DNA from: a virus
Lineage: Duplodnaviria > Heunggongvirae > Uroviricota > Caudoviricetes
Length of the DNA: 20,260 nucleotides
Virus record (IMG/VR): IMGVR_UViG_2563366944_000002
Span: 1 to 20,260 of that record
Reading direction: 5' to 3' (one strand)
Shown: positions 1-19,272 of the stretch, piece by piece
How positions within the stretch are numbered: position 1 is the first letter of the stretch
Layout: the number at the start of each line of letters is the position of its first letter
Translations under genes and position numbers: made by a program
Notes under the pieces: model-generated
Seen by the model: only the letters and a program-made list of their open reading frames with translations
Database searches by the model: none
What the model was told of the DNA's origin: nothing

Positions 1-2189
1 ACCGCCGTTATCTGAAAATACCCCGGCGTCAGCTCAATGGTGGCGGGTTTTGCAGGCGCGTTAATCCGGAAGGTGGTGGTCGCAGGTTCGCCCTGCTGGC
101 CGTAGCTGTTAATGGCCCGCACCGTCAGGGTGTATTCCCCCAGCGGCAGACCACTGAAACGGTGCTCCGTGTCTGCGGTGATGGCGGTGCTCACCAGACG
201 GCTGTCTTCTCCGCTTCCGCTGGTCAGACGCAGACTGAAGCGCACACCCTTCACCACCCGCGGCGTGTCCCATTTCGCCTGTGCCAGATACTGACCGTCA
301 GCTGCACTCACCTCCACCGTCAGGTGCTGCACTGCCGGTGGGATAACGCTGTTCAGGGTGCCTGACTGCGGCTCAAAGCTGGCCCCGTTATCCACGATGG
401 CTTCTTTTTCCGGTACGTGCTGCACCGCCGTGATGGCGAAGGTGCCGTCCGTGTTTTCCCGGATGGAGACACAGCGGAACAGGCGACGGCGCAGTGACGG
501 CAGGGAGAGTCCCCACACCCCGTATGTCTCCACACCATCAGGCAGGGTACTGACCTGTATCCGGTCCGGCGCGGGGTGTTCGGTGATGTCCACACTCACC
601 GGCTTACCACTGCCGTTAATCAGGTTCACCGTGGCGGCACCGGTCTCCGGAAGTGTCACTTCACGGTCCAGCGTCAGGGTGCGGGTGGCAGCATCAATGG
701 ACAGGACACGTCCGCCGGTCAGGGTCCCGGCATAGTCGTTATCACAGATTTCAATGATGTCACCGGGTGTGTGCCGCAGCCCCTGAGACCCGAGCGTGAA
801 ATCCACCGTCTGCGTTTCCAGCAGTTCGGTCTTTATCACCCACAGTCCGGCACGGTGGGCCTGACCGCGGCTGGTACAGCCGAACGCGTCCATCTTCAGC
901 AGGTTGCGTCCGTAGCGCAGTATGGCTTCCGGGTCTTCCACCAGTTCCGTGGAGGTCTGCCAGCCGTTCTGCGGGTCGGTGTAATTCACCTCCACTGCCG
1001 TGTGCCGGTCCTTCAGGGCACTGGAGCTGTAGCGGAAACCCACGCCGTTATCATCCACCACCACATCGCTGTTGGTGTACGGCCACACCACATCCGACGG
1101 ACGGTCCTGAACGAACGTCAGCGTCTGGCCGTTCCATACCGGCATACAGCGCATCGCAGAGCAGAAATCACTGAGAACGTCCCACGCCTTACGCTGTTGT
1201 GCCAGGTACGCATTAAAGGTCATCCGCGGCTCGGTCCCCCCGAAACCATCCGGGACCGTCTGGTCGCAGTACTGCCCGATGGCATACAGCGCCCACTTGT
1301 CCACATCCGCCGCCCCCAGACGTTTTCCCATGCCGTAGCGCGGGTGAGTCAGCATGTCCCACAGACACCAGGCCGGGTTGTTGCTGTATGCCGGTTTCAG
1401 GCTGCCGTCCCAGATACCACTGTACGTGCGTTTTTCCGGGTCATAGTTTGACGGCACCTGGATGATGCGACCGCGGATATGGTAGTTCACCGTCATCTGC
1501 TGGCCGCCGAACTGCTCCGCATCCACCTGCAGCCCCACAATGGCCGTGTTCGGGTAGCACTGTTTCACATCGATGATTTCGGTGTATGACGACCACAGCG
1601 TCTTATTCTGCAGCTGGTCCGTGGTGCTGTCCGCCGTCTCCCTGACCATCCGGATGTTAAAGGGCCGGGGCGGCAGATTATCCAGAATCACCGAGGCCAG
1701 GAACTGCGAGGTGGTCTTGCCGTTAATGGTGACATCCTTTTCCGTCACCCAGCGGCCATTACGCTGTAACTGAATCAGAATCCGGACAGAGGAAGGATTA
1801 CGGTCGCCCTTTGACGTGGTCTGCACCAGTGACTGCACCCCGAAGGTAACCCGCAGGCGGTCAATGTTCGCGGACGTAATGGTGCGCGTCACCGGTTTTG
1901 CCTTCGTCACTTCCACGCCCAGTCCGGTTTCAGCTCCGGAGGACTCAAAGCCTTCCGGTGGTGTCTGCTCCTGCTCCCCGGCACGCCAGACCGCAGTCAC
2001 ACCGTGTATCACGGGATTACCGTCCGTGTCCGTCAGCGGGGTTTTGTTCACCAGAATACTCTGCAGTCCCTTCACCGGACCTTCTATCGGTCCCTCACCA
2101 ATCGCATCAATCACACTCATCATCTGCGTGGATTTGAGATTATCCTTCGCCTCACGAGGCGTGTGTGCCTTACCGCCACCTTTTCCCAT
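1..2189 (-). CDS. J: Host-specificity / central tail fibre protein J, N-terminal ~729 codons; the gene continues past the left edge of the window
   Basis: Not in the ORF track because no stop lies in the window. My hand translation of the minus strand from the ATG at 2189-2187 gives MGKGGGKAHTPREAKDNLKSTQMMSVIDAIGEGPIEGPV...FESSGAETGLG...TSANIDRLRVTFGVQ...TSKGDRNPSSVRIL...NLPPRPFNIRM...DSTTDQLQNKTLWSSYTEIIDVKQ, which matches the lambda J N-terminus as I remember it. A GGGGAAGG Shine-Dalgarno sits just upstream. Confidence 0.9.
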   Translation of the reverse strand, partial: MGKGGGKAHTPREAKDNLKSTQMMSVIDAIGEGPIEGPVKGLQSILVNKTPLTDTDGNPVIHGVTAVWRAGEQEQTPPEGFESSGAETGLGVEVTKAKPVTRTITSANIDRLRVTFGVQSLVQTTSKGDRNPSSVRILIQLQRNGRWVTEKDVTINGKTTSQFLASVILDNLPPRPFNIRMVRETADSTTDQLQNKTLWSSYTEIIDVKQCYPNTAIVGLQVDAEQFGGQQMTVNYHIRGRIIQVPSNYDPEKRTYSGIWDGSLKPAYSNNPAWCLWDMLTHPRYGMGKRLGAADVDKWALYAIGQYCDQTVPDGFGGTEPRMTFNAYLAQQRKAWDVLSDFCSAMRCMPVWNGQTLTFVQDRPSDVVWPYTNSDVVVDDNGVGFRYSSSALKDRHTAVEVNYTDPQNGWQTSTELVEDPEAILRYGRNLLKMDAFGCTSRGQAHRAGLWVIKTELLETQTVDFTLGSQGLRHTPGDIIEICDNDYAGTLTGGRVLSIDAATRTLTLDREVTLPETGAATVNLINGSGKPVSVDITEHPAPDRIQVSTLPDGVETYGVWGLSLPSLRRRLFRCVSIRENTDGTFAITAVQHVPEKEAIVDNGASFEPQSGTLNSVIPPAVQHLTVEVSAADGQYLAQAKWDTPRVVKGVRFSLRLTSGSGEDSRLVSTAITADTEHRFSGLPLGEYTLTVRAINSYGQQGEPATTTFRINAPAKPATIELTPGYFQITA

Positions 2190-2293
2190 ACAGCCTTCCC
2201 CTGAATAAATTAACCGCCACTTGCCATTCCGTACAGAAGTCGGATATCCTTCGCCCGAAAAGCATGAAACACATTTCTGCCATGCTAAAGAGA

Positions 2294-2327
2294 AACCCCG
2301 GTATCAGCAGATACCGGGGTTTTCTTT
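2294..2327. terminator. Perfect 12-bp palindromic hairpin with T-rich flanks on both strands (bidirectional terminator-like element) in the I-J gap
   Basis: AACCCCGGTATC-AGCA-GATACCGGGGTT at 2294-2321, followed by TTCTTTC on the plus strand and by TTTCTCTTT on the minus strand. Confidence 0.45.
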
Positions 2328-2394
2328 CATGCCCACCGATAATCCTGTTGGTTAAAACCGGTAATGGCATAAAAATTCTGAATATCTTCACATT

Positions 2395-2422
2395 TTCACA
2401 AACTGACTGTGGCGCGTATAAT
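2395..2422 (+). promoter_or_regulatory. Sigma70-like promoter facing away from J, antisense to the late operon
   Basis: -35 TTCACA at 2395-2400, 16-bp spacer, perfect -10 TATAAT at 2417-2422. Consensus reading only. Confidence 0.45.
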
Positions 2423-2428
2423 TTCTCT

Positions 2429-2525
2429 GCGTTAATTTTTTTGTCGTGATATAAGAATAATTCCTTACACTTAATCTTCGTAACTCTCCCGCAGTTCCTG
2501 TCCGCGATCACTGCGGGATTTTTTT
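2429..2525 (+). ncRNA. Candidate small RNA of about 95-100 nt, from the predicted promoter to the intrinsic terminator; no ORF or RBS inside
   Basis: Predicted start ~7 nt after the -10. The body is AU-rich (TTAATTTTTTTGTCGTGATATAAGAATAATTCC) and ends in an 8-bp GC-rich stem plus T7. No ATG or GTG with an RBS in the interval. Confidence 0.4.
2487..2525 (+). terminator. Rho-independent terminator, plus orientation
   Basis: Stem TCCCGCAG (2487-2494) pairs with CTGCGGGA (2511-2518), followed by TTTTTTT (2519-2525). The opposite strand has no T tract after the stem. Confidence 0.6.
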
Positions 2526-2532
2526 ATTCTTT

Positions 2533-3213
2533 TTACCCCTGCCGCCCGATAACCACGACCTTTCCGCCCCCGCCTTCATCACGGGTGCTGATGTCCTGGG
2601 ATATACGGCGGGAGCCAACCAGCATTTCCCCGTAAGGCACCGGCATCGGGTTCCCCTGGGCAATCATGTTATCCAGTGAGGAAAAGTACGTGTTCTGTCT
2701 GCCGTTATCCGTTGCGCGGTAATCCGGTGTTTTTGCCTTCGGGGCCAGCATCTGGGCCACTCCGCCCAGTATCATGCTGGCACCCAGTGAAAACAGCATC
2801 GTGGTGGCAGAAAAACCACCGGCACTCAGGGCTGTACCCCATAACGCCATCGAGCCTCCGGCCGTGAAGAAAGAGCCCACGATGGCTGCCGCCCCCAGCA
2901 CAATCTGCAGTCCACCCTTTCCGGCCCCGGCCAGTCGCGGCACAATGTGGATGACCGTTCCCTCACCCAGCTGTTCGTGAAGACGGGCGTACACCGCCTC
3001 CGGTGCCGTGTCATCACCGGCAATACGTATCTGGTACCAGCCTTCGTTCATCTGACGGCGAAAGCCCGGCATCTGCATCGACAGGGCGCGAATGGCTTCC
3101 GCTGCCGTGTTCACATACAGGCTGAGGCGGCGGCCAAATCGTTGCAAATCCCCGTGAAGGCAGATGCGTGCCAGTGGCGGTGACGCCAGACAGAATGCGT
3201 TCGTCGTTGCCAT
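2533..3213 (-). CDS. I: Tail assembly protein I
   Basis: 226-aa ORF MATTNAFCLASPPLARICLHGDLQRFGRR... collinear with lambda gpI (remembered MAATHTLPLASPGMARICLYGDLQRFGRR...); position between K and J. Confidence 0.9.
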   Translation of the reverse strand: MATTNAFCLASPPLARICLHGDLQRFGRRLSLYVNTAAEAIRALSMQMPGFRRQMNEGWYQIRIAGDDTAPEAVYARLHEQLGEGTVIHIVPRLAGAGKGGLQIVLGAAAIVGSFFTAGGSMALWGTALSAGGFSATTMLFSLGASMILGGVAQMLAPKAKTPDYRATDNGRQNTYFSSLDNMIAQGNPMPVPYGEMLVGSRRISQDISTRDEGGGGKVVVIGRQG

Positions 3214-3854
3214 TTTTCGGAATACCTCTCCCGTTTACTCAGTTGTTCAGGCAGATGGTGAAGCAGCTCACCGTTGCCGCAGTAAATGGCGGCATGGTTC
3301 GGTACCGAAGCACCAAAGCAGCACAGCAGAATATCGCCCGCCTGTGCAGAGGACAGGGGCACCCGGTAAAAGCCGGTGACCGCCATATTGTCCAGGTAAA
3401 GGTTCTGACCGTTGCGCCACCAGTCATCCTCGCGATGAAAATCCGGCATTTCAGTCCCCGCCAGATGGTATGCATCCCGGAACAGGGTGTAACAGTCCGT
3501 CACCCCGTGCTCAAAGCGCCGTCCCGTCAGGTGCGGCACGCAGCGGAATTTGTGAATGTCACCCCGGCAGACCAGCCACCAGGGCAGTGCGCTTTTTATC
3601 TGCAGCCGCCGGTCAGCCTCGCTCAGCCAGGGCAGCCCACCGGGATGACTGTGGACCAGTGCCACAATCTCCCCCTGCATCTCTGCCCGCAGCCAGTCTT
3701 CCGGTGCAATACGAAAATACGCCTCCGGCTCTGCAGAGATATTCACACAAGGGATATACCGCTCCCCCTCCGGCGTTCTCACCACTAAGCCGCACGACTC
3801 CGCAGGCACACACCGCCGGGCATGCGCCAGAATCGCTGATTCTGTCTGTGTCAT
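3111..3854 (-). CDS. K: Tail tip assembly protein K (MPN/JAMM plus NlpC/P60 domains)
   Basis: 247-aa ORF with JAMM motif HSHPGGLPWLSEAD (HxHx7Sx2D) and a Cys/His pair typical of NlpC/P60 (GVTDCYTLF, VPNHAAIY). It overlaps I by 103 bp, as I recall for lambda K/I. The true start could be an internal Met. Confidence 0.9.
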   Translation of the reverse strand: MTQTESAILAHARRCVPAESCGLVVRTPEGERYIPCVNISAEPEAYFRIAPEDWLRAEMQGEIVALVHSHPGGLPWLSEADRRLQIKSALPWWLVCRGDIHKFRCVPHLTGRRFEHGVTDCYTLFRDAYHLAGTEMPDFHREDDWWRNGQNLYLDNMAVTGFYRVPLSSAQAGDILLCCFGASVPNHAAIYCGNGELLHHLPEQLSKRERYSEKWQRRTHSVWRHRHWHASAFTGICNDLAAASACM

Positions 3855-3859
3855 TGGAT

Positions 3860-4558
3860 TTACTGCGAAAGTTTGTTAATGGAAAGGAAACCGCCAAAAT
3901 TAGCCACCATGCCGCGCATCTCACACCCGCGCATGCACTTGCTGCATCTGTCCTTACGGATATCCGTGGTGGGGTTGTCGAACTCATCCGCCACCGCAGG
4001 ACCGTTATACCCGCATTCATCTCCCCGGTAATCCCACATACAGGTGTTCGCCAGCATGATGCGACCGGGAAACAGCGCCCCGTCCGTCTCGGTCGGTGTA
4101 GCCAGCACAAACGAGGCCGTCATGGCTGTCAGCTGCGACATCTGCTCCACCACCCAGCGGTCACTCAGCTCCTGCTCCGGGTCCGCCTCCGGATTGCCCG
4201 CAACGAAATTCACCGCATCCAGAAAACGGGCATACACCCGGCGGCGGACCACCGTGGCCCCCACCAGACTCTGCAGGTCTTCCGCCATCCCGGTGACCAG
4301 ACCGAACAGATTGGACACCGTCAGCGACGGTCTGGCACTGCTGCCCCGGCCGTTCATCTCAAAGCCGCTGCCGTCAATCGGGTATGCCTCATACTTACGC
4401 CCCTGCCAGGTGACCGGCTCCCCTTTTTCATTCAGCTCATTACAGAAAAAATACCGCTCACCACCCTGTACCGTCAGGTCGATTTCCCAGAGTACCACCC
4501 GCGGTGACTGCTCTGACTTAACCGACTCGTTCAGACTTTCTTCGCGAATATCCTGCAT
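3860..4558 (-). CDS. L: Tail tip protein L
   Basis: 232-aa ORF, the same length as lambda gpL, with a cysteine-rich C-terminus (CSKCMRGCEM) consistent with the known Fe-S site; collinear position. Confidence 0.9.
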   Translation of the reverse strand: MQDIREESLNESVKSEQSPRVVLWEIDLTVQGGERYFFCNELNEKGEPVTWQGRKYEAYPIDGSGFEMNGRGSSARPSLTVSNLFGLVTGMAEDLQSLVGATVVRRRVYARFLDAVNFVAGNPEADPEQELSDRWVVEQMSQLTAMTASFVLATPTETDGALFPGRIMLANTCMWDYRGDECGYNGPAVADEFDNPTTDIRKDRCSKCMRGCEMRGMVANFGGFLSINKLSQ

Positions 4559-4887
4559 CAGTTCACCACCTGCTTAAACTCCGCGCTGAACTCAACGCGC
4601 AACATCCCGACCCGCGCAGACCACCCGGCACAGGTCACCTTTATCTGCCGGTATGCATAGGGTGGCTTCCACAAAAATGCCTTCCAGCCACCGTGCTCTG
4701 CCAGGAACGCTTCCAGATGCCGGGCCTCCTCCCGGGTCACGGAAAGCGTCACCCTGTATGTTTTCAGGTCAGCATTCAGCCCTGCCGCCATACGCTGTGA
4801 GTACCCGTCACCAAAACGCACTTCACGCACCGATGGCTGCGAGTTCACCTCCATATCCGGCTTCACTTTCCAGCGAAAGGTTTTCAT
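4558..4887 (-). CDS. M: Minor tail protein M
   Basis: 109-aa ORF, the same length as lambda gpM; start and stop overlap the neighbours (ATGA junctions); collinear position. Confidence 0.88.
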   Translation of the reverse strand: MKTFRWKVKPDMEVNSQPSVREVRFGDGYSQRMAAGLNADLKTYRVTLSVTREEARHLEAFLAEHGGWKAFLWKPPYAYRQIKVTCAGWSARVGMLRVEFSAEFKQVVN

Positions 4888-7568
4888 CCACCGCTCCCTG
4901 ATAACATACCGCCATCACGCAACTGCAGCCGGAGTTCATCCTGTGCCCCCTTGCGGGCCATCTCATACACCGCTTTCATCAGCTGCGGCCCTGCCCGCCC
5001 GTTGGGGCCGTCGTTCTGAATCACCACGTGATTGTTCTGATTAAAATTAATGCCTTCCGCCCGCCGCATCTGCGCCGGACTTCCGGCACCGCCGACATAA
5101 CCACCTTCCGCATAGCCCCGCATCAGGCGGTACAGATTGCCGACACCAATCCGGCTGGTCGCCTCCTTCGTGAAGACAAACTCCCCGCGATGAACAATCC
5201 CCGCAGGTTCATATTTGCCGCCGGTTCCCGTAAATCCTCCGGTCGCGAAATGGAATTTCGCCGCAGCTGCCTGAATGGCTGTACCGCCTGACGCGGATGC
5301 GCCGCCACCAACAGCCCCGCCAATAGCGCTGCCGATACTCCCGACAATCCCCACCATTGCCTGCTTAAGCAGAATTTCTGTCATCATGGACAGCACGGAG
5401 CGGGTGAAGCTGCGCCAGTTCTGCTCACTGCCGGTCAGCATCGCCGCCATATTCTGTGCAATACCATCAAAGGTCTGCGTGGCAGCACTTTTTACCTGCG
5501 ACATACTGTCCGTGGCACTCTCTTCCCACTCACTCCAGCCGGACCTGAGGCCTGCCATCCAGTTCCCGCGAAGCAGGTCTTCAGCCGCCCAGGTCTTTTT
5601 CTGCTCTGACATGACGTTATTCAGCGCCAGCGGATTATCGCCATACTGTTCCTTCAGGCGCTGTTCCGTGGCTTCCCGTTCTGCCTGCCGGTCAGTCAGC
5701 CCCCGGATTTTCGCATCAATGGCGGCCCGTTTTGCCCGTTGCTGCTGTGCGAATTTATCCGCCTGCTGCGCCAGCGCGTTCAGGCGCTCCTGATACGTAA
5801 CCTTGTCGCCAAGTGCAGCCAGCTGGCGTTTGTACTCCAGCGTCTCATCTTTATGCGCCAGCAGGGATTTCTCCTGTGCAGACAGCTGGCGTTTGTACTC
5901 CAGCGTCTCATCTTTATGCGCCAGCAGGGATTTCTCCTGTGCAGACAGCTGGCGACGTTGCGCCGCCTCCTCCAGTACCGCGAACTGACTCTCCGCCTTC
6001 CACAAATCCCGGCGCTGCTGGCTGATTTTCTCATTTGCTCCGGCATGCTTCTCCAGCGTCCGGAGTTCTGCCTGAAGCGTCAGCAGGGCAGCATGAGCAC
6101 TGTCTTCCTGACGATCGCCCGCAGACACCTTCACGCCGGACTGTTTCGCCTTTTTCAGCGTCGCTTCATAGTCCTTTTTCGCCGCCGCCATCAGCGTGTT
6201 GTAATCTGCCTGCAGAATTTTCCCGTCCTTCAGTGCCTTGTTCAGTTCTTCCTGACGGGCGGTATATTTCTCCAGCGGCGTCTGCAGGCGTTCATAAGCC
6301 TTCTGCGCCTCTTCGGTATATTTCAGCCGTGATGCCTCAGACTCGGCCCAGTCCTTTGCTGCCATCTCTCTGGCCTTTTCAAGATCGGCCTGCAACGTGG
6401 CGGCTGAAAGCCCAAGTTGCGCATTCGCTCTGTCCTCCCATGCTCCCCGGAGATTGGCAAGAAATGCGGATGTTTTACCGCGCCGGTGGCTCCGGCTCTG
6501 ATACCACTGCCATTTTTTGTCCGCCTCATCAAAAGCCTTTTCTGCTTTCTCCAGCATTTCCCGGGCAGTGTCCGGGCGACCAATATCCAGCACCGAATCC
6601 CACATGGATTTGAATGCCCGTGCTGTCCTGTCTGCCCAGGTCTCCAGCGTGCCCATGTTCTCTTTCAGGCGGCGGGTCTGGTCATCAAACCCTTTCGTTG
6701 CGGCCTCGTTCGCCGCCTGCAATGCCCCGGTTTCATCGCCGGAACGCTGCAACTGAGCAACATACGTAATCTGCTCCGCCGTCACGTTATGGAACTGCTT
6801 CGCCATCGCAATCAGCCCCGACGTCGGGTCAGTGGTCAGTTTTCCGAAAGCCTCTGCAACCTTGTCCACCTCCACACCGGATGCAGAAGCAAAACGCGCG
6901 ACACTCTGGTTGATGGCATCAAACTGTTCACCACCACGCACACCGGCATTCACCATGGCTGCCAGTGACTCACTCGCCTGGTTAAACGTCAGCCCTGCGG
7001 CCTGTCCGGCTCTGGAGAGCGTCAGCATGCGATCGGCAGTCAGTCCGGACTGATTACCGGAAAGAACCAGGGTTTTATTAAACGCTGAAAGCGTGGAATC
7101 TCCCTGGTACCAGGCGTACACCAGCGCACCTGTCGCCACCGCCAGCGAGGTGACCCCGACCATCGGCAGGGTGATCGCACCGGCAAGCCCCCTGAACATG
7201 GGGATCATCCCGCCGAAGGAGTCCTTCACCTGACCGCCCTGTTGCAGCAGGATCAGCCAGGGATTCTGACCACCGGCAAGCTGCGTGGCGATATCCGTAA
7301 ACTGTGCGGGCAGGGTTCGCATGGCCGCTTTATACTGCCCGACGGAAATCCCTGCTTTTTGTGCAGCCAGCGCCTGGCGGCTCAGGCCCTGCTCAACAGC
7401 AGCGGCCTGTTTCTTAAAAGACTGGCTGACACGCCCGGCCATCAAATCCGCAAGGTCACTGGTTTCACCCAGTTCTTTCTTTACCCGTGCAGCCTCTTCA
7501 GAAAAACGGGTTGAATCCAGTGTAAGAACAGCTGTCAGATCGGCAAAATTACCCGCCATAGCGTACAC
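4884..7568 (-). CDS. H: Tail tape-measure protein H
   Basis: 894-aa ORF, Ala/Gln/Lys-rich with long helical stretches, a Gly-rich hydrophobic C-terminal segment and the C-terminal region typical of gpH; position between G-T and M. Confidence 0.9.
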   Translation of the reverse strand: MYAMAGNFADLTAVLTLDSTRFSEEAARVKKELGETSDLADLMAGRVSQSFKKQAAAVEQGLSRQALAAQKAGISVGQYKAAMRTLPAQFTDIATQLAGGQNPWLILLQQGGQVKDSFGGMIPMFRGLAGAITLPMVGVTSLAVATGALVYAWYQGDSTLSAFNKTLVLSGNQSGLTADRMLTLSRAGQAAGLTFNQASESLAAMVNAGVRGGEQFDAINQSVARFASASGVEVDKVAEAFGKLTTDPTSGLIAMAKQFHNVTAEQITYVAQLQRSGDETGALQAANEAATKGFDDQTRRLKENMGTLETWADRTARAFKSMWDSVLDIGRPDTAREMLEKAEKAFDEADKKWQWYQSRSHRRGKTSAFLANLRGAWEDRANAQLGLSAATLQADLEKAREMAAKDWAESEASRLKYTEEAQKAYERLQTPLEKYTARQEELNKALKDGKILQADYNTLMAAAKKDYEATLKKAKQSGVKVSAGDRQEDSAHAALLTLQAELRTLEKHAGANEKISQQRRDLWKAESQFAVLEEAAQRRQLSAQEKSLLAHKDETLEYKRQLSAQEKSLLAHKDETLEYKRQLAALGDKVTYQERLNALAQQADKFAQQQRAKRAAIDAKIRGLTDRQAEREATEQRLKEQYGDNPLALNNVMSEQKKTWAAEDLLRGNWMAGLRSGWSEWEESATDSMSQVKSAATQTFDGIAQNMAAMLTGSEQNWRSFTRSVLSMMTEILLKQAMVGIVGSIGSAIGGAVGGGASASGGTAIQAAAAKFHFATGGFTGTGGKYEPAGIVHRGEFVFTKEATSRIGVGNLYRLMRGYAEGGYVGGAGSPAQMRRAEGINFNQNNHVVIQNDGPNGRAGPQLMKAVYEMARKGAQDELRLQLRDGGMLSGSGG
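5821..5946. repeat. Exact tandem duplication, 2 x 63 bp, in frame inside the tape-measure gene
   Basis: 5821-5883 and 5884-5946 are identical (AGCTGGCGTTTGTACTCCAGCGTCTCATCTTTATGCGCCAGCAGGGATTTCTCCTGTGCAGAC). In the protein this repeats QLSAQEKSLLAHKDETLEYKR twice. Confidence 0.9.
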
Positions 7569-8411
7569 CTCCTGGAATTCCCTCAGACACCATCATCAGC
7601 ATGGCTTCATCCTCTGTACTGCTCCGCATGTCATCACTGACCATAACGATTTCCTTCCCGTCAGCCCCAAAGCGGACACCACCAGAAAGACCTGCCGCTT
7701 TCCGCATCAGCATATCGTCCTCATCCGGCATCTCCGTCTGCTCATCATCACGTCGGGGTGCCAGCAGACTGAAATCAGAGGGATGCATATCCGGATCGCA
7801 AAAAAACAGGCTGAGTACAGCGTACGTCAGCCCGGAAAAATGCATATCCAGCTGGGTATCCTGAAAATAATGCGTGCGGTAAAAACGGTGCCAGTCGGCA
7901 TATTCGGTGGATGTCATCCCGGCAAGCATGGCGCGCCAGTCGGGTCTCCCCATCTCACGCGCCAGTCTGAGGGCAAAGTTCAGCTCGCCGTCGAAGACTT
8001 TCCCGCAGAAAAATCATCATCAGTCAGCGTGTTATTTTTCGCCACTTCAGTAATATCAGTATCCGGACGAACAGCTTCGATCATCCCGGACAGGCACAAC
8101 ACCACGTCTTCCGCCCGGGCAATGGCATCGGCAGGCCAGGTGGTGAGCACTTCCTGCTCTATCTTCATCACGGCCTCATTCATTGACGGTGACTGCGTTT
8201 TCTGTGGATGGTTATGCCACAGGGACATCGCCACCAGAAACGCGCCGGTTCTGACAAGATCTTCCACACTCACCTGCAGGTTGCCGCTGGCTTCAGCCTC
8301 TTCTGCCCGCCGTTTCAGGAGGGCAAGATGCTCAATACGCTGCAGCGCAGACAGCTCAGAAAGCGTGACGGATACACCGTTATATTCAAATTGTTCTGTT
8401 TTCAGGAACAT
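7549..8411 (-). CDS. GT: Tail assembly chaperone G-T, made by a programmed -1 ribosomal frameshift from the G frame into the T frame
   Basis: The T-frame ORF (7549-7953) has no credible independent start. Slipping -1 at GGGAAAG joins ...FSAGK to VFDGELNFALRLAREMGRPDWRAMLAGMT..., the same arrangement as lambda G/G-T. Confidence 0.8.
7980..8411 (-). CDS. G: Tail assembly chaperone G
   Basis: 143-aa ORF MFLKTEQFEYNGVSVTLSELSALQRIEHLALLKRR...SAGKSSTAS, close to lambda gpG as remembered (MFLKTESFEHNGVTVTLSELSALQRIEHLAL...). Confidence 0.88.
   Translation of the reverse strand: MFLKTEQFEYNGVSVTLSELSALQRIEHLALLKRRAEEAEASGNLQVSVEDLVRTGAFLVAMSLWHNHPQKTQSPSMNEAVMKIEQEVLTTWPADAIARAEDVVLCLSGMIEAVRPDTDITEVAKNNTLTDDDFSAGKSSTAS
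7998..8004 (-). promoter_or_regulatory. Slippery heptamer G GGA AAG for the G to G-T -1 frameshift
   Basis: The minus strand reads GCG GGA AAG TCT... in the G frame, 7 codons before the G stop. This is the same heptamer used by lambda. Confidence 0.75.
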
Positions 8412-8429: not shown

Positions 8430-9176
8430 TTAGCCACCCGGCACATTATTAACGGTAATTTCAGCCACCGCAGCAAACTGACCATTACCGGAAATCACAG
8501 GGATGCTGACTTTTCCATCCTTAACCCCCGTCACAGTAATCGTCATATCTTTCACGCTAATGGTGGCTTTTGATGGATCGGCGGAAATCGCCCTGAATGT
8601 CTTATCCGTTGCATTTTCCGGTTCCACAGTAACGGTCAGGGTGGTTGTTTTCCCTTTTTCAACCGTACCTGTCGGCGTTACCTTAATCGCAGTGACCGGC
8701 GTAATTTTGCTGCGTTCTTCCGCTACAGAAGGTTTACCCACGTTAGTGACTTTCACCGTGCGGGTGATCACTTCTTTCGCCGTCACGGCCTTACCGATAC
8801 TGCTGACCCAGCCACGAAACACATCCACCGTGCCATTCGGAAAACGGATTTTATAGGCCCGGACATCGCCGCTTTCAAACCAGCCTATAAGCCCTTTCTG
8901 ACCTTCCTCTCCCGGTTTCCAGGCCAGCGTAAAACTGGTATCACCTGCAGATTTCTGTCCCTGCCCGGTCGCGGTCCAGTCCGCGTCTTCATCATCCAGG
9001 TAGTTATCATCGTAGGATTCAGCCGTCATCTCGCCCGGCGTCAGATCCTTCACCTTAGCCAGTCGCTGCCAGTCATCGTCTGACAACGGGTTTGCATAAG
9101 CATCAGCCTTGCCGTTGTAAACCCACAGAGTGGTACCGGCACCTTTTACCGGCTCCAGGGGATTTGGTGTTGCCAT
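8430..9176 (-). CDS. V: Major tail tube protein V, with C-terminal Ig-like domain
   Basis: 248-aa ORF ...[49 protein letters not shown]..., near-identical in pattern to lambda gpV; the C-terminal [12 protein letters not shown]...[10 protein letters not shown] segment looks like the Ig-like domain. Confidence 0.92.
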
Positions 9177-9183
9177 ATCGTCC

Positions 9184-9582
9184 TCACATCTCGTAGGTAA
9201 TTTTCCACAGGAGATCTGCCGATCCCCACATCATAAACTCATCATCCCGGCGGTAGTCATACCCCTGAAGATTCATCTTCAGCAGTAACGCACTGAGGCC
9301 GGGAACCGCCTCCAGCGCAGGAAGGATTTTCTCTTCCATCCACATATCCAGTGCCGAGTCCGGTTCTTTTGCCCTGAGAAAAACTTCAATATGCAGTGTC
9401 GCCTCCCAGGTCCCCTCATCAACGAACTCGTCAGCAGCAGACGCATCAGTCAGGTAAACAGCAACAGCAGGCAGTTCCTGTTCATCAATAAAAACCGGGC
9501 GGCCGTCAAACCAGCTCACCCGCTCAGAAATATTGTCTTTCAGGGCAGACAGAACTGCCGCCCGTATTTCACGGTGTTTCAT
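9184..9582 (-). CDS. U: Tail terminator protein U
   Basis: 132-aa [19 protein letters not shown]...[26 protein letters not shown], which aligns with remembered lambda gpU (…[26 protein letters not shown]). Confidence 0.9.
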
Positions 9583-17975: not shown

Positions 17976-18440
17976 CTACTTAATGCACTGGGTGCGGATA
18001 TATTCCTGCAATCCCCGAATCATTCTGTCGCTGGTTGCGATTCGCTCTCTGAGGGTGAAATAATCCCGTTGAGCGGCGTCAGTAAGTCCGGGGCGGGCTG
18101 CATCATCCACGCCGGTGGTGCCGGTGGCTTCACGCACGGCTGGACAGACTGCTCTGATGCGCAACCGACGACGACCAGCGGCAATATCATCACGCAGAGC
18201 ATCATTTTCAGCTTTCGCATCAGCTAACTCCCTTGAGTATTTTTCATCGAGTGCAGCAACATCACGCTGGCGCTGCTGCATATCAGTAATGGTTGCATTT
18301 GCCTGCTCCAGCTCACTGACTTTTTTATCGCGCTGCTCTTTGTAGGTTATGGCGTTATCACGGTAATGATTCAGCCCCAGACTAAGCGCACCACAGGCCA
18401 CCAGCAGGGCAATGATGACCACGCACAGTACGCGGTTCAT
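17976..18440 (-). CDS. Rz: Spanin inner-membrane subunit Rz (i-spanin)
   Basis: 154-aa ORF with an N-terminal TM segment then NHYRDNAITYKEQRDKK...AKAENDALRDDIAAGRRRLRI, closely matching lambda Rz as remembered. Confidence 0.92.
   Translation of the reverse strand: MNRVLCVVIIALLVACGALSLGLNHYRDNAITYKEQRDKKVSELEQANATITDMQQRQRDVAALDEKYSRELADAKAENDALRDDIAAGRRRLRIRAVCPAVREATGTTGVDDAARPGLTDAAQRDYFTLRERIATSDRMIRGLQEYIRTQCIK
18020..18220 (-). CDS. Rz1: Spanin outer-membrane lipoprotein Rz1 (o-spanin), embedded in the +1 frame of Rz
   Basis: MRKLKMMLCVMILPLVVVGCAS... with a lipobox (VVGC) and proline-rich CVKPPAPPAWMMQPAPDLLTPLNGIISPSE, the same pattern as lambda Rz1. Confidence 0.85.
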   Translation of the reverse strand: MRKLKMMLCVMILPLVVVGCASEQSVQPCVKPPAPPAWMMQPAPDLLTPLNGIISPSESESQPATE

Positions 18441-18441
18441 T

Positions 18442-18579
18442 TCACCACCAGCGTATCTGACCGATGAAATAACCGGAGGCCATAATCACAAACACCAGCC
18501 AGATAAGAATGAACTTCCAGGTGGATAATTTTTCAGCCATCACTCGAATCTCCCGAATCAGTTTGCTAAAATCAAACAC
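18442..18579 (-). CDS. Candidate 45-codon single-pass membrane protein between endolysin and Rz (GTG start; alternative ATG at 18540 gives 32 aa)
   Basis: Not in the track (below 60 aa). AAGGAG sits upstream of a GTG at 18579 with a short spacer. Hand translation: MFDFSKLIREIRVMAEKLSTWKFILIWLVFVIMASGYFIGQIRWW; the stop is 1 nt from the Rz start. One hydrophobic helix. Prediction only. Confidence 0.3.
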   Translation of the reverse strand: MFDFSKLIREIRVMAEKLSTWKFILIWLVFVIMASGYFIGQIRWW

Positions 18580-18615
18580 ACTTTCTCCTTTGACTTTTCC
18601 AGAGTCAGGAAACAC

Positions 18616-18649
18616 AAAACCCCGCTTGCAGCCAACAAACGGGGTTTTT
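18616..18649. terminator. Hairpin with T/A tracts on both sides (bidirectional terminator-like) in the endolysin-Rz gap
   Basis: CCCCGCTTG / CAAACGGGG stem (one mismatch) with a 7-nt loop, followed by TTTTT on the plus strand and preceded by AAAA (a U tract on the minus strand). Confidence 0.4.
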
Positions 18650-18738
18650 ACTTTTATTCACTTAGGTTTTGCCAGTTCTCAGGATTTCGTGTTATCCGTC
18701 CGCATTAGCCAACGTCATTTTTCAACAAAATATTCTGC

Positions 18739-19272
18739 TTATTTGTCAATTCCCCAGCACGCCAGCGCGCTCTCCTGGTCACGCCGTGAGACCTGTCCAT
18801 AGCAGTTATTTGAACGAATACGGCAGTCTCTGCCACCGTCCTTAATCCACCAGCGAATCGCCTCACATGCTCCCCTGCGATCGCCTGCATTAATTCGTTT
18901 ATAAAACGTCGACGGGAAACACTTACCGGGGCCAATGTTATACGGGCAGAATGACGCAATACCCGCTTTCTGTGGTTCAGTCAGTGGCACTTTGATGTTT
19001 TTCGCCACCCATGCCAGCGCCTTATCACGCTCAATGGCGTTAACCTGGTCGCATTTTTCCTTCGACAACTTCATGCCGGGGAGGACAGGCTTACCATCCA
19101 CCCGGGTGGCTCCACGGCAGATGGTCCAGATACCCGCGCCATCACGGTATGCCGTGGTGTGGTTACCTTCCTTTTCATCCAGAAACTGGTCGAGAATGTC
19201 AGGCGCAGGCGCACCAGCGGCAATCAGCGCCAGAACGGCAGCCGACAGGCCGTATTTGATTTTTGCGTTCAT
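18739..19272 (-). CDS. R: Endolysin, lysozyme-like with N-terminal signal-anchor-release (SAR) domain
   Basis: 177-aa ORF with an N-terminal weakly hydrophobic Gly/Ala-rich segment (GLSAAVLALIAAGAPA) followed by a catalytic E-x8-D-x5-T pattern (EKEGNHTTAYRDGAGIWT), as in P21-type SAR endolysins. Weak RBS. Confidence 0.9.
   Translation of the reverse strand: MNAKIKYGLSAAVLALIAAGAPAPDILDQFLDEKEGNHTTAYRDGAGIWTICRGATRVDGKPVLPGMKLSKEKCDQVNAIERDKALAWVAKNIKVPLTEPQKAGIASFCPYNIGPGKCFPSTFYKRINAGDRRGACEAIRWWIKDGGRDCRIRSNNCYGQVSRRDQESALACWGIDK

What the first reader, a model, noticed from the sequence alone, without database searches (positions are those of the whole stretch)
5821..5946. Exact in-frame 63-bp tandem duplication in the tape-measure gene
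Two identical 63-bp units add 21 residues (QLSAQEKSLLAHKDETLEYKR twice) to a helical part of gpH. In lambda-like phages tail length scales with tape-measure length, so this should lengthen the tail slightly. The perfect identity of the copies suggests a recent event, and the site could vary in copy number between isolates.
Basis: partly seen in the sequence, partly recalled or inferred. Interest (0 to 1): 0.5.

Follow-up and report, generated by a model that had tools for sequence, protein, structure and literature searches.

The report
Rare 21-residue duplication in tape-measure gene
A lambda-type prophage of E. coli KTE38 carries a real but rare exact 63-bp in-frame tandem duplication in its tail tape-measure gene, made by slippage between two 9-bp repeats and expected to lengthen the tail by at most about one tube ring; it is an ordinary length allele of a well-understood protein.

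Summary
Window 5820-5954 is exactly periodic at 63 nt (two units plus 9 nt). It lies in frame in the minus-strand gene 4884-7559, an 891-aa homologue of lambda gpH, and repeats QLSAQEKSLLAHKDETLEYKR (aa 537-557 and 558-578).

- **Ancestral state:** one copy. Lambda has the unit once (aa 520-540), as do all listed phage and E. coli hits.
- **Frequency:** a junction-specific search found two copies in 1 of 5,426 complete E. coli genomes, against about 5,000 places holding the segment. It found none in 50,697 phage records, and 263 sampled viral, genome and metagenome contigs were all single-copy. No zero-copy or three-copy allele was seen.
- **Not an artefact:** the same junction occurs in three other assemblies (AF3, CP164189.1, CADHRI01), in non-identical prophages with a different head module.
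- **Origin:** single-copy alleles carry CGCCAGCTG (codons R-Q-L) at both ends of the unit, and the join lies inside this 9-nt repeat. That points to slippage or short-homology exchange.
- **Effect (inferred):** the segment is predicted as one long helix. At 0.15 nm per residue, 21 aa add about 3.2 nm, or 0.75 of a 4.2-nm gpV ring, so 32 rings would become about 33.

The site is not hypervariable, and "recent" is only weakly supported. Interest is low.

The parts
4884..7559 (-). Tail tape-measure gene, a lambda gpH homologue of 891 aa from the ATG at 7559. A GTG at 7568 would give 894 aa.
   Evidence: Translation. Pfam TMP_2 and Tape_meas_lam_C are above cut-off. It is 81% identical to lambda H over the full length. 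The exact protein is EOV08199.1 / WP_016236257.1 of E. coli KTE38.
5889..5951 (-). Copy 1 of the 63-bp unit, codon-aligned, aa 537-557 (QLSAQEKSLLAHKDETLEYKR).
5826..5888 (-). Copy 2 of the 63-bp unit, codon-aligned, aa 558-578. It is identical to copy 1.
5820..5954 (.). Whole tract of exact period-63 identity: two units plus a 9-nt third copy of the microhomology.
5946..5954 (-). 9-nt microhomology CGCCAGCTG (codons R536-Q537-L538) at the upstream edge of the unit. It is part of the 16-nt imperfect repeat 5939-5954.
   Evidence: The repeat pair is present in most single-copy alleles.
5883..5891 (-). The same 9-nt microhomology at the novel joint between the copies (R557-Q558-L559). The crossover lies within it.
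   Evidence: The T/G mismatch next to it places the switch inside the 9 nt.
5820..5828 (-). The same 9-nt microhomology at the downstream edge (R578-Q579-L580, followed by AAL instead of SAQ).
7549..8411 (-). Tail assembly chaperone genes G (7980-8411) and T (7549-7953), with the lambda-type slippery heptamer GGGAAAG at about 8004-7998. These are partners of the tape measure in length-controlled assembly.
   Evidence: Pfam Phage_TAC_2 and Phage_tail_T. The heptamer was found.
8430..9176 (-). Major tail tube gene V (248 aa). Its hexamer rings are the units counted off along the tape measure.
   Evidence: Pfam Phage_TTP_12 and Big_2.
9184..9582 (-). Tail terminator gene U (132 aa).
   Evidence: Pfam Phage_tail_U.

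Best explanation
The feature is a genuine, rare allele of the lambda-type tape-measure gene H, in which a 63-bp segment encoding 21 residues (lambda gpH aa 520-540) is tandemly duplicated.

Origin (inferred from the anatomy): single-copy H genes carry the 9-nt direct repeat CGCCAGCTG (codons Arg-Gln-Leu) exactly 63 nt apart, at the two ends of the unit. The repeat is 16 nt long with one mismatch. Slipped-strand mispairing during replication, or unequal short-homology exchange between these repeats, duplicates the interval. The new joint falls inside the 9-nt repeat, as observed.

Effect (inferred from lambda genetics and structure): the extra 21 residues lie in the long predicted alpha-helical body of gpH that is retained in gpH*. 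This is the part that acts as the ruler along which gpV hexamer rings polymerise, with the G/GT chaperones, until gpU caps the tube. At about 0.15 nm per residue the ruler gains about 3.2 nm, or 0.75 of a 4.2-nm ring. Particles should therefore carry about one more ring (33 instead of 32, roughly +3%), or a mixture of the two.

The allele has persisted or spread. It occurs in at least four non-identical lambdoid prophages. It is nevertheless very uncommon, so the site is not a programmed variable-number locus.
For: **Shown here**
- The exact period-63 tract is in frame.
- The gene is a gpH homologue.
- Lambda and all 40 listed phage hits and 40 listed E. coli hits span 738 nt instead of 801, meaning one copy.
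- A 51-nt junction blastn tolerating about 4 mismatches hits 1 of 5,426 complete E. coli genomes. About 5,004 places hold the segment.
- The same junction query finds nothing in 50,697 phage records.
- Exact junction scans find nothing in the viral, genome and metagenome collections. The unit core used as a positive control is present once in each of 263 sampled contigs.
- The same duplication is in AF3 (L001), CP164189.1 (L003) and CADHRI010000035.1 (L004). Their H genes are identical, but the prophages differ by 0.2-1.1%. Their head module and H 5' half differ from the window's.
- The flanking repeat pair GTGCAG[C/A]CAGCTGGCG is present in most single-copy alleles (180 of the sampled flank pairs), and the joint carries the upstream variant.
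- AlphaFold2 models aa 480-639 as one helix, with pLDDT above 90 over the repeat.
- The tail module is intact, with a G-T slippery site.

**From the literature**
- Deletions and duplications in lambda H give shorter and longer tails (PMC1796659).
- The ruler extends 0.15 nm per residue (PMC5099701).
- The lambda tube has 32 gpV rings with a 42 A rise (PMC10721106).
- gpH is 853 aa, and gpH* keeps roughly residues 1-700 (PMC12617516).
Against: - No particle has been measured. 21 residues is less than one ring, so the ring count might not change.
- Natural single-copy alleles already range from 849 to 870 aa with no known tail-length differences.
- I could not verify from the papers I could read that Katsura's length-proportional region includes residues 520-540.
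- Inducibility of the KTE38 prophage is unknown. The contig ends inside J. The AF3 copy has a frameshifted head protease gene, so some carriers may be defective.
- Raw reads of KTE38 were not examined.
- A single origin cannot be told from recurrent origin. The 779 nt around the repeat are identical also in a single-copy allele (L008).
Confidence: 0.85

Rival explanations
1. Assembly artefact: the short-read assembler of the KTE38 draft expanded a single copy into two.
For: The window comes from a draft contig that ends in repeated prophage DNA. E. coli genomes hold a median of 2 H-like places each, which complicates assembly. Reads were not inspected.
Against: The identical junction is in three other assemblies, including two complete chromosomes, in non-identical prophages. 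Junction k-mers longer than 16 nt do not exist in single-copy alleles, so an assembler cannot create them. Assemblers tend to collapse tandem repeats, not expand them.
Confidence: 0.02
2. Hypervariable contingency locus: copy number at this site changes frequently between isolates and tunes tail length.
For: Two states (1 and 2 copies) exist in nature. A tandem duplication with 72 nt of perfect homology can in principle expand or contract.
Against: Two copies occur in 1 of 5,426 complete genomes, about 1 of 5,000 places. No 0-copy allele was found, no 3-copy allele (all four carriers have 2), and none among 263 sampled contigs. TRF finds no other tandem repeat in about 100 complete H genes.
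Confidence: 0.03
3. Phenotypically silent polymorphism: the duplication is real but does not change ring number or fitness. It may ride in defective prophages where tail genes are not under selection.
For: 21 aa is 0.75 of a ring. Single-copy alleles already vary over 21 aa (849-870 aa). The AF3 carrier has a frameshifted S49 head protease. The allele is rare.
Against: Proportional scaling in lambda H mutants (PMC1796659, PMC5099701) predicts 32.8 rings for the 874-aa allele against 853 aa. All tail genes of the window prophage are intact. L003 and L004 have an intact head protease.
Confidence: 0.3
4. Selected allele spread by recombination: the longer gpH is advantageous and has moved between lambdoid prophages. 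gpH is both the ruler and, as gpH*, part of the trans-envelope DNA channel.
For: The same duplication sits in two different mosaic H genes and with two different head modules. The three AF3-type carriers have identical H genes in prophages that differ by up to 1.1%. gpH* residues 320-691 are modelled as part of the periplasmic channel (PMC12617516).
Against: The very low frequency argues against an advantage. Mosaicism is the norm for lambdoid tail genes and needs no selection. Recurrent slippage at the same repeats would give the same product.
Confidence: 0.1

Closest known systems
Bacteriophage lambda gpH (tail tape-measure protein, 853 aa; J02459 10542-13103)
   Same: It is 81% identical overall and nearly identical from aa 400 to 830. 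It has the same Pfam domains and the same gene order V-G-T-H-M-L-K-I-J with a G-T slippery site. The duplicated unit is lambda residues 520-540.
   Different: The window allele carries the unit twice (+21 aa). It also has an 11-aa insertion near the N-terminus and a diverged, 6-aa longer central segment, giving 891 aa. The head module of the prophage is not lambda-like: it has a ClpP-capsid fusion.
Laboratory in-frame deletions and duplications of lambda H (Katsura & Hendrix 1984; Katsura 1987)
   Same: This is an in-frame length change inside the ruler protein, which in those experiments changed tail length in proportion (as summarised in PMC1796659 and PMC5099701).
   Different: Here the change arose naturally, is small (2.4% of the protein, less than one ring), and its phenotype has not been measured.
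Repeat-mediated length variation in other tape-measure proteins (TP901-1 TMP 11/18-aa repeats; Belcaid et al. 2011 'units, duplications and losses')
   Same: Duplication or loss of short sequence units is a route to tape-measure length change (PMC5099701, PMC13585406).
   Different: Lambda-type H has no repeat array. TRF finds no other tandem repeat in about 100 complete H genes. This is a single isolated event at a chance 9-nt microhomology.
874-aa tape-measure allele of E. coli AF3 / CP164189.1 / CADHRI01 (WP_510002664.1, XJK33128.1)
   Same: It has the same 63-bp duplication with an identical joint and no differences over window 5257-6035. The tail module is 99.45% identical over 6.3 kb.
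   Different: Its H 5' half and central segment are lambda-like (853+21 aa), and its head genes are lambda-type E/D/C.

Membership tests
Lambda gpH-type tail tape-measure protein | Sequence homology to lambda gpH across the full length | tested here: met
   BLASTP gives 81% identity over 892 aligned positions, E = 0. DNA identity to lambda in the repeat region is 98.3%.
Lambda gpH-type tail tape-measure protein | Pfam TMP_2 (PF06791) and Tape_meas_lam_C (PF09718) domains above gathering score | tested here: met
   233.2 bits against a cut-off of 30.2, and 76.5 bits against 23.
Lambda gpH-type tail tape-measure protein | Position in the tail operon after the G/G-T frameshift chaperones and before M-L-K-I-J | tested here: met
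   Gene order with Pfam assignments. GGGAAAG slippery site near the end of G.
Lambda gpH-type tail tape-measure protein | Long alpha-helical body | tested here: met
   The AlphaFold2 single-sequence model of aa 470-640 is one helix spanning aa 480-639, mean pLDDT 85.5. This is a prediction only.
Lambda gpH-type tail tape-measure protein | Protein length sets tail length (ruler function) | not testable with these tools
   Known for lambda H from the literature (PMC1796659, PMC5099701). This allele needs EM of particles.
Microhomology-mediated (slippage) tandem duplication | Short direct repeats flank the unit in the single-copy progenitor, and the joint lies within the repeat | tested here: met
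   CGCCAGCTG occurs at both ends of the unit in lambda and in most sampled single-copy alleles (180 of the sampled flank pairs). The joint carries the upstream variant of the adjacent mismatch.
Variable-number tandem repeat / contingency locus | Frequent copy-number differences among related genomes, with several states | tested here: not met
   Two copies in 1 of 5,426 genomes. No 0-copy alleles. No 3-copy alleles. All 263 sampled contigs are single-copy.

The most novel reading that the evidence does not exclude
The 21-residue duplication may be a selected, horizontally exchanged 'long-ruler' allele. It would add one gpV ring and lengthen the gpH* trans-envelope channel, and would have moved by recombination between unrelated lambdoid prophages, explaining its presence with two head modules and two H 5' halves. 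If so, it is a natural experiment on how fractional ruler increments are rounded to whole rings.
Probability: 0.1. Interest if true: 0.4.

Novelty: new member of a known kind. Interest (0 to 1): 0.2.

Why it matters
It matters only modestly. The allele is a natural counterpart of the classic engineered lambda H length mutants. The strains carrying it could be used to ask how a ruler increment of 0.75 ring is rounded to whole gpV rings, and whether channel length matters for ejection. It also gives a clean example of a microhomology-mediated in-frame duplication, with a measured population frequency of about 1 in 5,000 H genes. It does not reveal a new system or mechanism.

Tried and rejected
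- **Junction blastn with a 96-nt query.** The tool joins the two overlapping partial matches of single-copy genes into "100% covered" places, so coverage could not discriminate. I replaced it with a 51-nt junction query and an E-value limit that single-copy matches cannot reach.
- **Search for the exact single-copy parent of the window's mosaic H in complete E. coli genomes.** The best full-length match is only 93.7%. 870-aa alleles with the same N-terminus exist in IMG/VR (L066, L106, L118) but differ at 176-206 sites. No direct parent was found.
- **Flanking-haplotype test for single versus recurrent origin.** It was uninformative. A single-copy allele (L008) is identical to both duplication alleles over 5257-6035.
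- **Heptad and coiled-coil periodicity.** Period-7 hydrophobic power is significant only in some windows (p 0.009-0.25). The remark that 21 aa equals three heptads, which would preserve a coiled-coil register, therefore stays an inference.
- **Rfam scan of the window.** It returned nothing.
- **Xu, Hendrix & Duda 2014 (PMC3907469).** The paper is not held. Katsura's original papers are also not held, so the exact residue range of the length-proportional region was not verified.
- **Large protein-database searches.** I did not run them. At 90% clustering, duplication alleles are hidden inside single-copy clusters.
Full report
**1. The observation**

The window contains an exact tandem repeat. 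Positions 5821-5883 equal 5884-5946. Base i equals base i+63 for every i in 5820-5891, so the exactly periodic tract is 5820-5954: 135 nt, or two units plus 9 nt. It extends to 5813 with a single mismatch, where 5819 is C and 5882 and 5945 are A. Tandem Repeats Finder reports period 63, 2.3 copies, 98% matches and score 277. It is the only substantial tandem repeat in the 20-kb window.

The repeat lies in the minus-strand ORF 4884-7568. Read from the ATG at 7559, this ORF gives an 891-aa protein. The repeat is in frame. QLSAQEKSLLAHKDETLEYKR occurs at aa 537-557 (5889-5951) and aa 558-578 (5826-5888).

**2. What the gene is and where the window comes from**

The protein hits Pfam TMP_2 (3.3e-69) and Tape_meas_lam_C (1.7e-21), both well above their gathering scores. 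It is 81% identical to lambda gpH over the full length and nearly identical from about aa 400 to 830.

The neighbourhood is a lambda-type tail operon: Z, U, V, G, T, H, M, L, K, I, J. The lambda G-T slippery heptamer GGGAAAG is present near the end of G.

The exact protein is on record once, as EOV08199.1 / WP_016236257.1 of E. coli KTE38. It lies at the end of draft contig KE136816.1 of GCA_000408005.1, and the window's first 17,559 bases are that contig end. The head module is not lambda's: it has a ClpP-protease/capsid fusion and a cement protein. The prophage is therefore a mosaic lambdoid.

**3. Which state is ancestral, and how common is the duplication**

Lambda H carries the unit once, at aa 520-540. 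With an 801-nt query across the repeat, all 40 listed phage records span 738 nt in two pieces, which means one copy. These include lambda, HK629, HK630 and DE3. All 40 listed complete E. coli genomes do the same.

I then used a junction-specific 51-nt query (5862-5912) under an E-value limit that single-copy genes cannot reach, but that a true joint with up to about four mismatches can. It hits exactly one of 5,426 complete E. coli genomes. A 96-nt query finds the segment at about 5,004 places in 3,567 genomes. The same junction query finds nothing in 50,697 phage records.

Exact scans for the joint find nothing in IMG/VR viral contigs, GTDB species-representative genomes or JGI metagenome contigs. 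As a positive control, the 47-nt core of the unit is present in all three collections.

The reciprocal product, a deletion of the unit between the same repeats, is absent from the complete E. coli genomes. All carriers have two copies and none has three. In about 100 complete H genes among the fetched loci, TRF finds no other tandem repeat. Single-copy lengths are mostly 853 and 859 aa, with 849-858 and 870 also seen.

The site is therefore polymorphic, but the two-copy state is rare. It is not a variable-number locus.

**4. Is it an artefact?**

I could not inspect reads. However, the same duplication with the identical joint is present in three other assemblies:
- the complete chromosome of isolate AF3 (NZ_OZ547117.1, UK blood culture; L001; an 874-aa protein, which is 853 + 21);
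- the complete chromosome CP164189.1 (L003);
- the draft contig CADHRI010000035.1 (L004).

Their H genes are identical at the nucleotide level. The surrounding prophages differ: L003 against L001 is 98.9% over 14.5 kb, and L003 against L004 is 99.84%.

Compared with the window, the AF3 prophage is 99.45% identical over window 1-6332, with no difference in 5257-6035. It has a lambda-like H 5' half and central segment, and lambda-type head genes.

Four assemblies in non-identical backgrounds make an assembly artefact very unlikely. In addition, joint k-mers longer than 16 nt do not exist in single-copy alleles, so an assembler could not invent them.

**5. How it arose**

This part is inferred from the anatomy. 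On the coding strand, lambda reads ...CGT CGCCAGCTG T CTGCAC...(unit)...AAA CGCCAGCTG G CTGCAC... A 9-nt exact repeat (codons Arg-Gln-Leu), 16 nt long with one mismatch, sits at both ends of the 63-nt interval.

In the duplicated allele the middle copy of this repeat carries the upstream T variant. It is preceded by the end of the unit and followed by its beginning, so the switch occurred within the 9 nt. This is the signature of slipped-strand mispairing or short-homology unequal exchange.

The same repeat pair is present in most sampled single-copy alleles: 180 of the sampled flank pairs are identical to the presumed progenitor. The substrate is therefore widespread while the product is rare. 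That fits a low-rate event rather than a hot spot.

Recurrent events would give the same product, so identity of the joint cannot distinguish one origin from several. The flanking haplotype does not help either. A single-copy allele from a second prophage of isolate AF3 (L008) is identical to both duplication alleles across 5257-6035 and differs from the window at only four sites in 4884-6332.

**6. "Recent event"?**

Perfect identity of two 63-nt copies has little dating power. At the 0.5-1.1% divergence seen between carriers, only 0.3-0.7 substitutions between the copies would be expected. The presence of the allele in at least four non-identical prophages, with two different H 5' halves and two head modules, means one of two things. 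Either one event predates that diversification and recombination, or the event has recurred.

**7. What it most likely does**

This part is inferred. A single-sequence AlphaFold2 model of aa 470-640 is one continuous helix spanning aa 480-639. Its mean pLDDT is 85.5 and exceeds 90 over both copies. This supports "helical part", as a prediction.

The unit lies in the part of gpH retained in gpH*, roughly residues 1-700, and well upstream of the C-terminal region that binds gpI (PMC12617516).

For lambda, small deletions and duplications in H give correspondingly shorter or longer tails (PMC1796659, citing Katsura & Hendrix 1984 and Katsura 1987). The ruler extends about 0.15 nm per residue (PMC5099701). 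The lambda tube has 32 gpV rings with a 42 A rise (PMC10721106).

Twenty-one residues therefore add about 3.2 nm, or 0.75 ring. Proportional scaling gives 32 x 874/853 = 32.8 rings. The expected phenotype is one extra ring (about +3%) in all or some particles.

For the window's allele the total excess over lambda is 38 aa. It is unknown whether its N-terminal 11-aa insertion counts towards the ruler.

Twenty-one residues equal three heptads, so a coiled-coil register would be preserved. Heptad periodicity in this region is only weakly supported.

None of this has been measured. Natural single-copy alleles already span 849-870 aa with no documented tail differences. One carrier (AF3) has a frameshifted head protease gene, so it may not make particles.

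**8. Comparison with what is known, and verdict**

The gene is a clear member of the lambda gpH family. Every sequence-level criterion was tested and met. The ruler function itself cannot be tested with these tools.

The duplication is a natural analogue of engineered lambda H duplications. It is also an example of the duplication and loss of units discussed for other tape-measure proteins (PMC5099701, PMC13585406). It differs from those in being a single isolated event at a chance microhomology, not part of a repeat array.

This is a new allele of a known kind, real and neatly explained, with a small and predictable expected phenotype. Interest is low (0.2). The most novel reading not excluded is that it is a selected long-ruler or long-channel allele moved between prophages by recombination. 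I rate that at about 10% likely and of moderate interest if true.

Noticed in passing
window 2190-2532: There is a 343-nt AT-rich spacer between tail genes I and J, where lambda has about 60 nt. It holds a GC-rich hairpin followed by a T run (AAACCCCGGTATC...GATACCGGGGTTT, about 2293-2325 on the minus strand). The region is unannotated in RefSeq relatives (L001 4353-4695). The ORF 2170-2511(-) has no PHROG match. It may be a small inserted 'moron' or a terminator.
   Followed up: partly
window 18441-18738: There is a gap of about 300 nt between the Rz-like spanin gene (17976-18440) and the endolysin gene (18739-19272). A plus-strand ORF at 18509-18802 in this region has no PHROG match.
   Followed up: no
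L130-L151 (genome-contig scan): The lambda H unit core occurs in genome assemblies of unrelated taxa (Pseudomonas, Shewanella, Paenibacillus, Kitasatospora, Enterococcus and others). Several hits are on low-coverage contigs of about 48.4-48.5 kb. This is probably lambda control-DNA contamination of those assemblies.
   Followed up: no
L001 14530-16036; L008: In isolate AF3 the duplication-bearing prophage has a frameshifted S49 head-protease gene. The same genome carries a second lambdoid prophage whose single-copy H 3' half differs from the window's at only 4 sites. This gives scope for gene conversion between co-resident prophages.
   Followed up: partly
window 1 (= end of contig KE136816.1): The window starts at a contig end inside tail-fibre gene J. 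This is a typical short-read assembly break in DNA shared by several lambdoid prophages. The prophage's distal end and integrity cannot be judged from the window.
   Followed up: no
window 6333-6551 and 7420-7478 (H gene): Besides the duplication, this H allele differs from lambda by a diverged central segment that is 6 aa longer, and by an 11-aa N-terminal insertion. Natural single-copy H alleles range from 849 to 870 aa. It is not known whether this length mosaicism corresponds to different ring numbers.
   Followed up: partly
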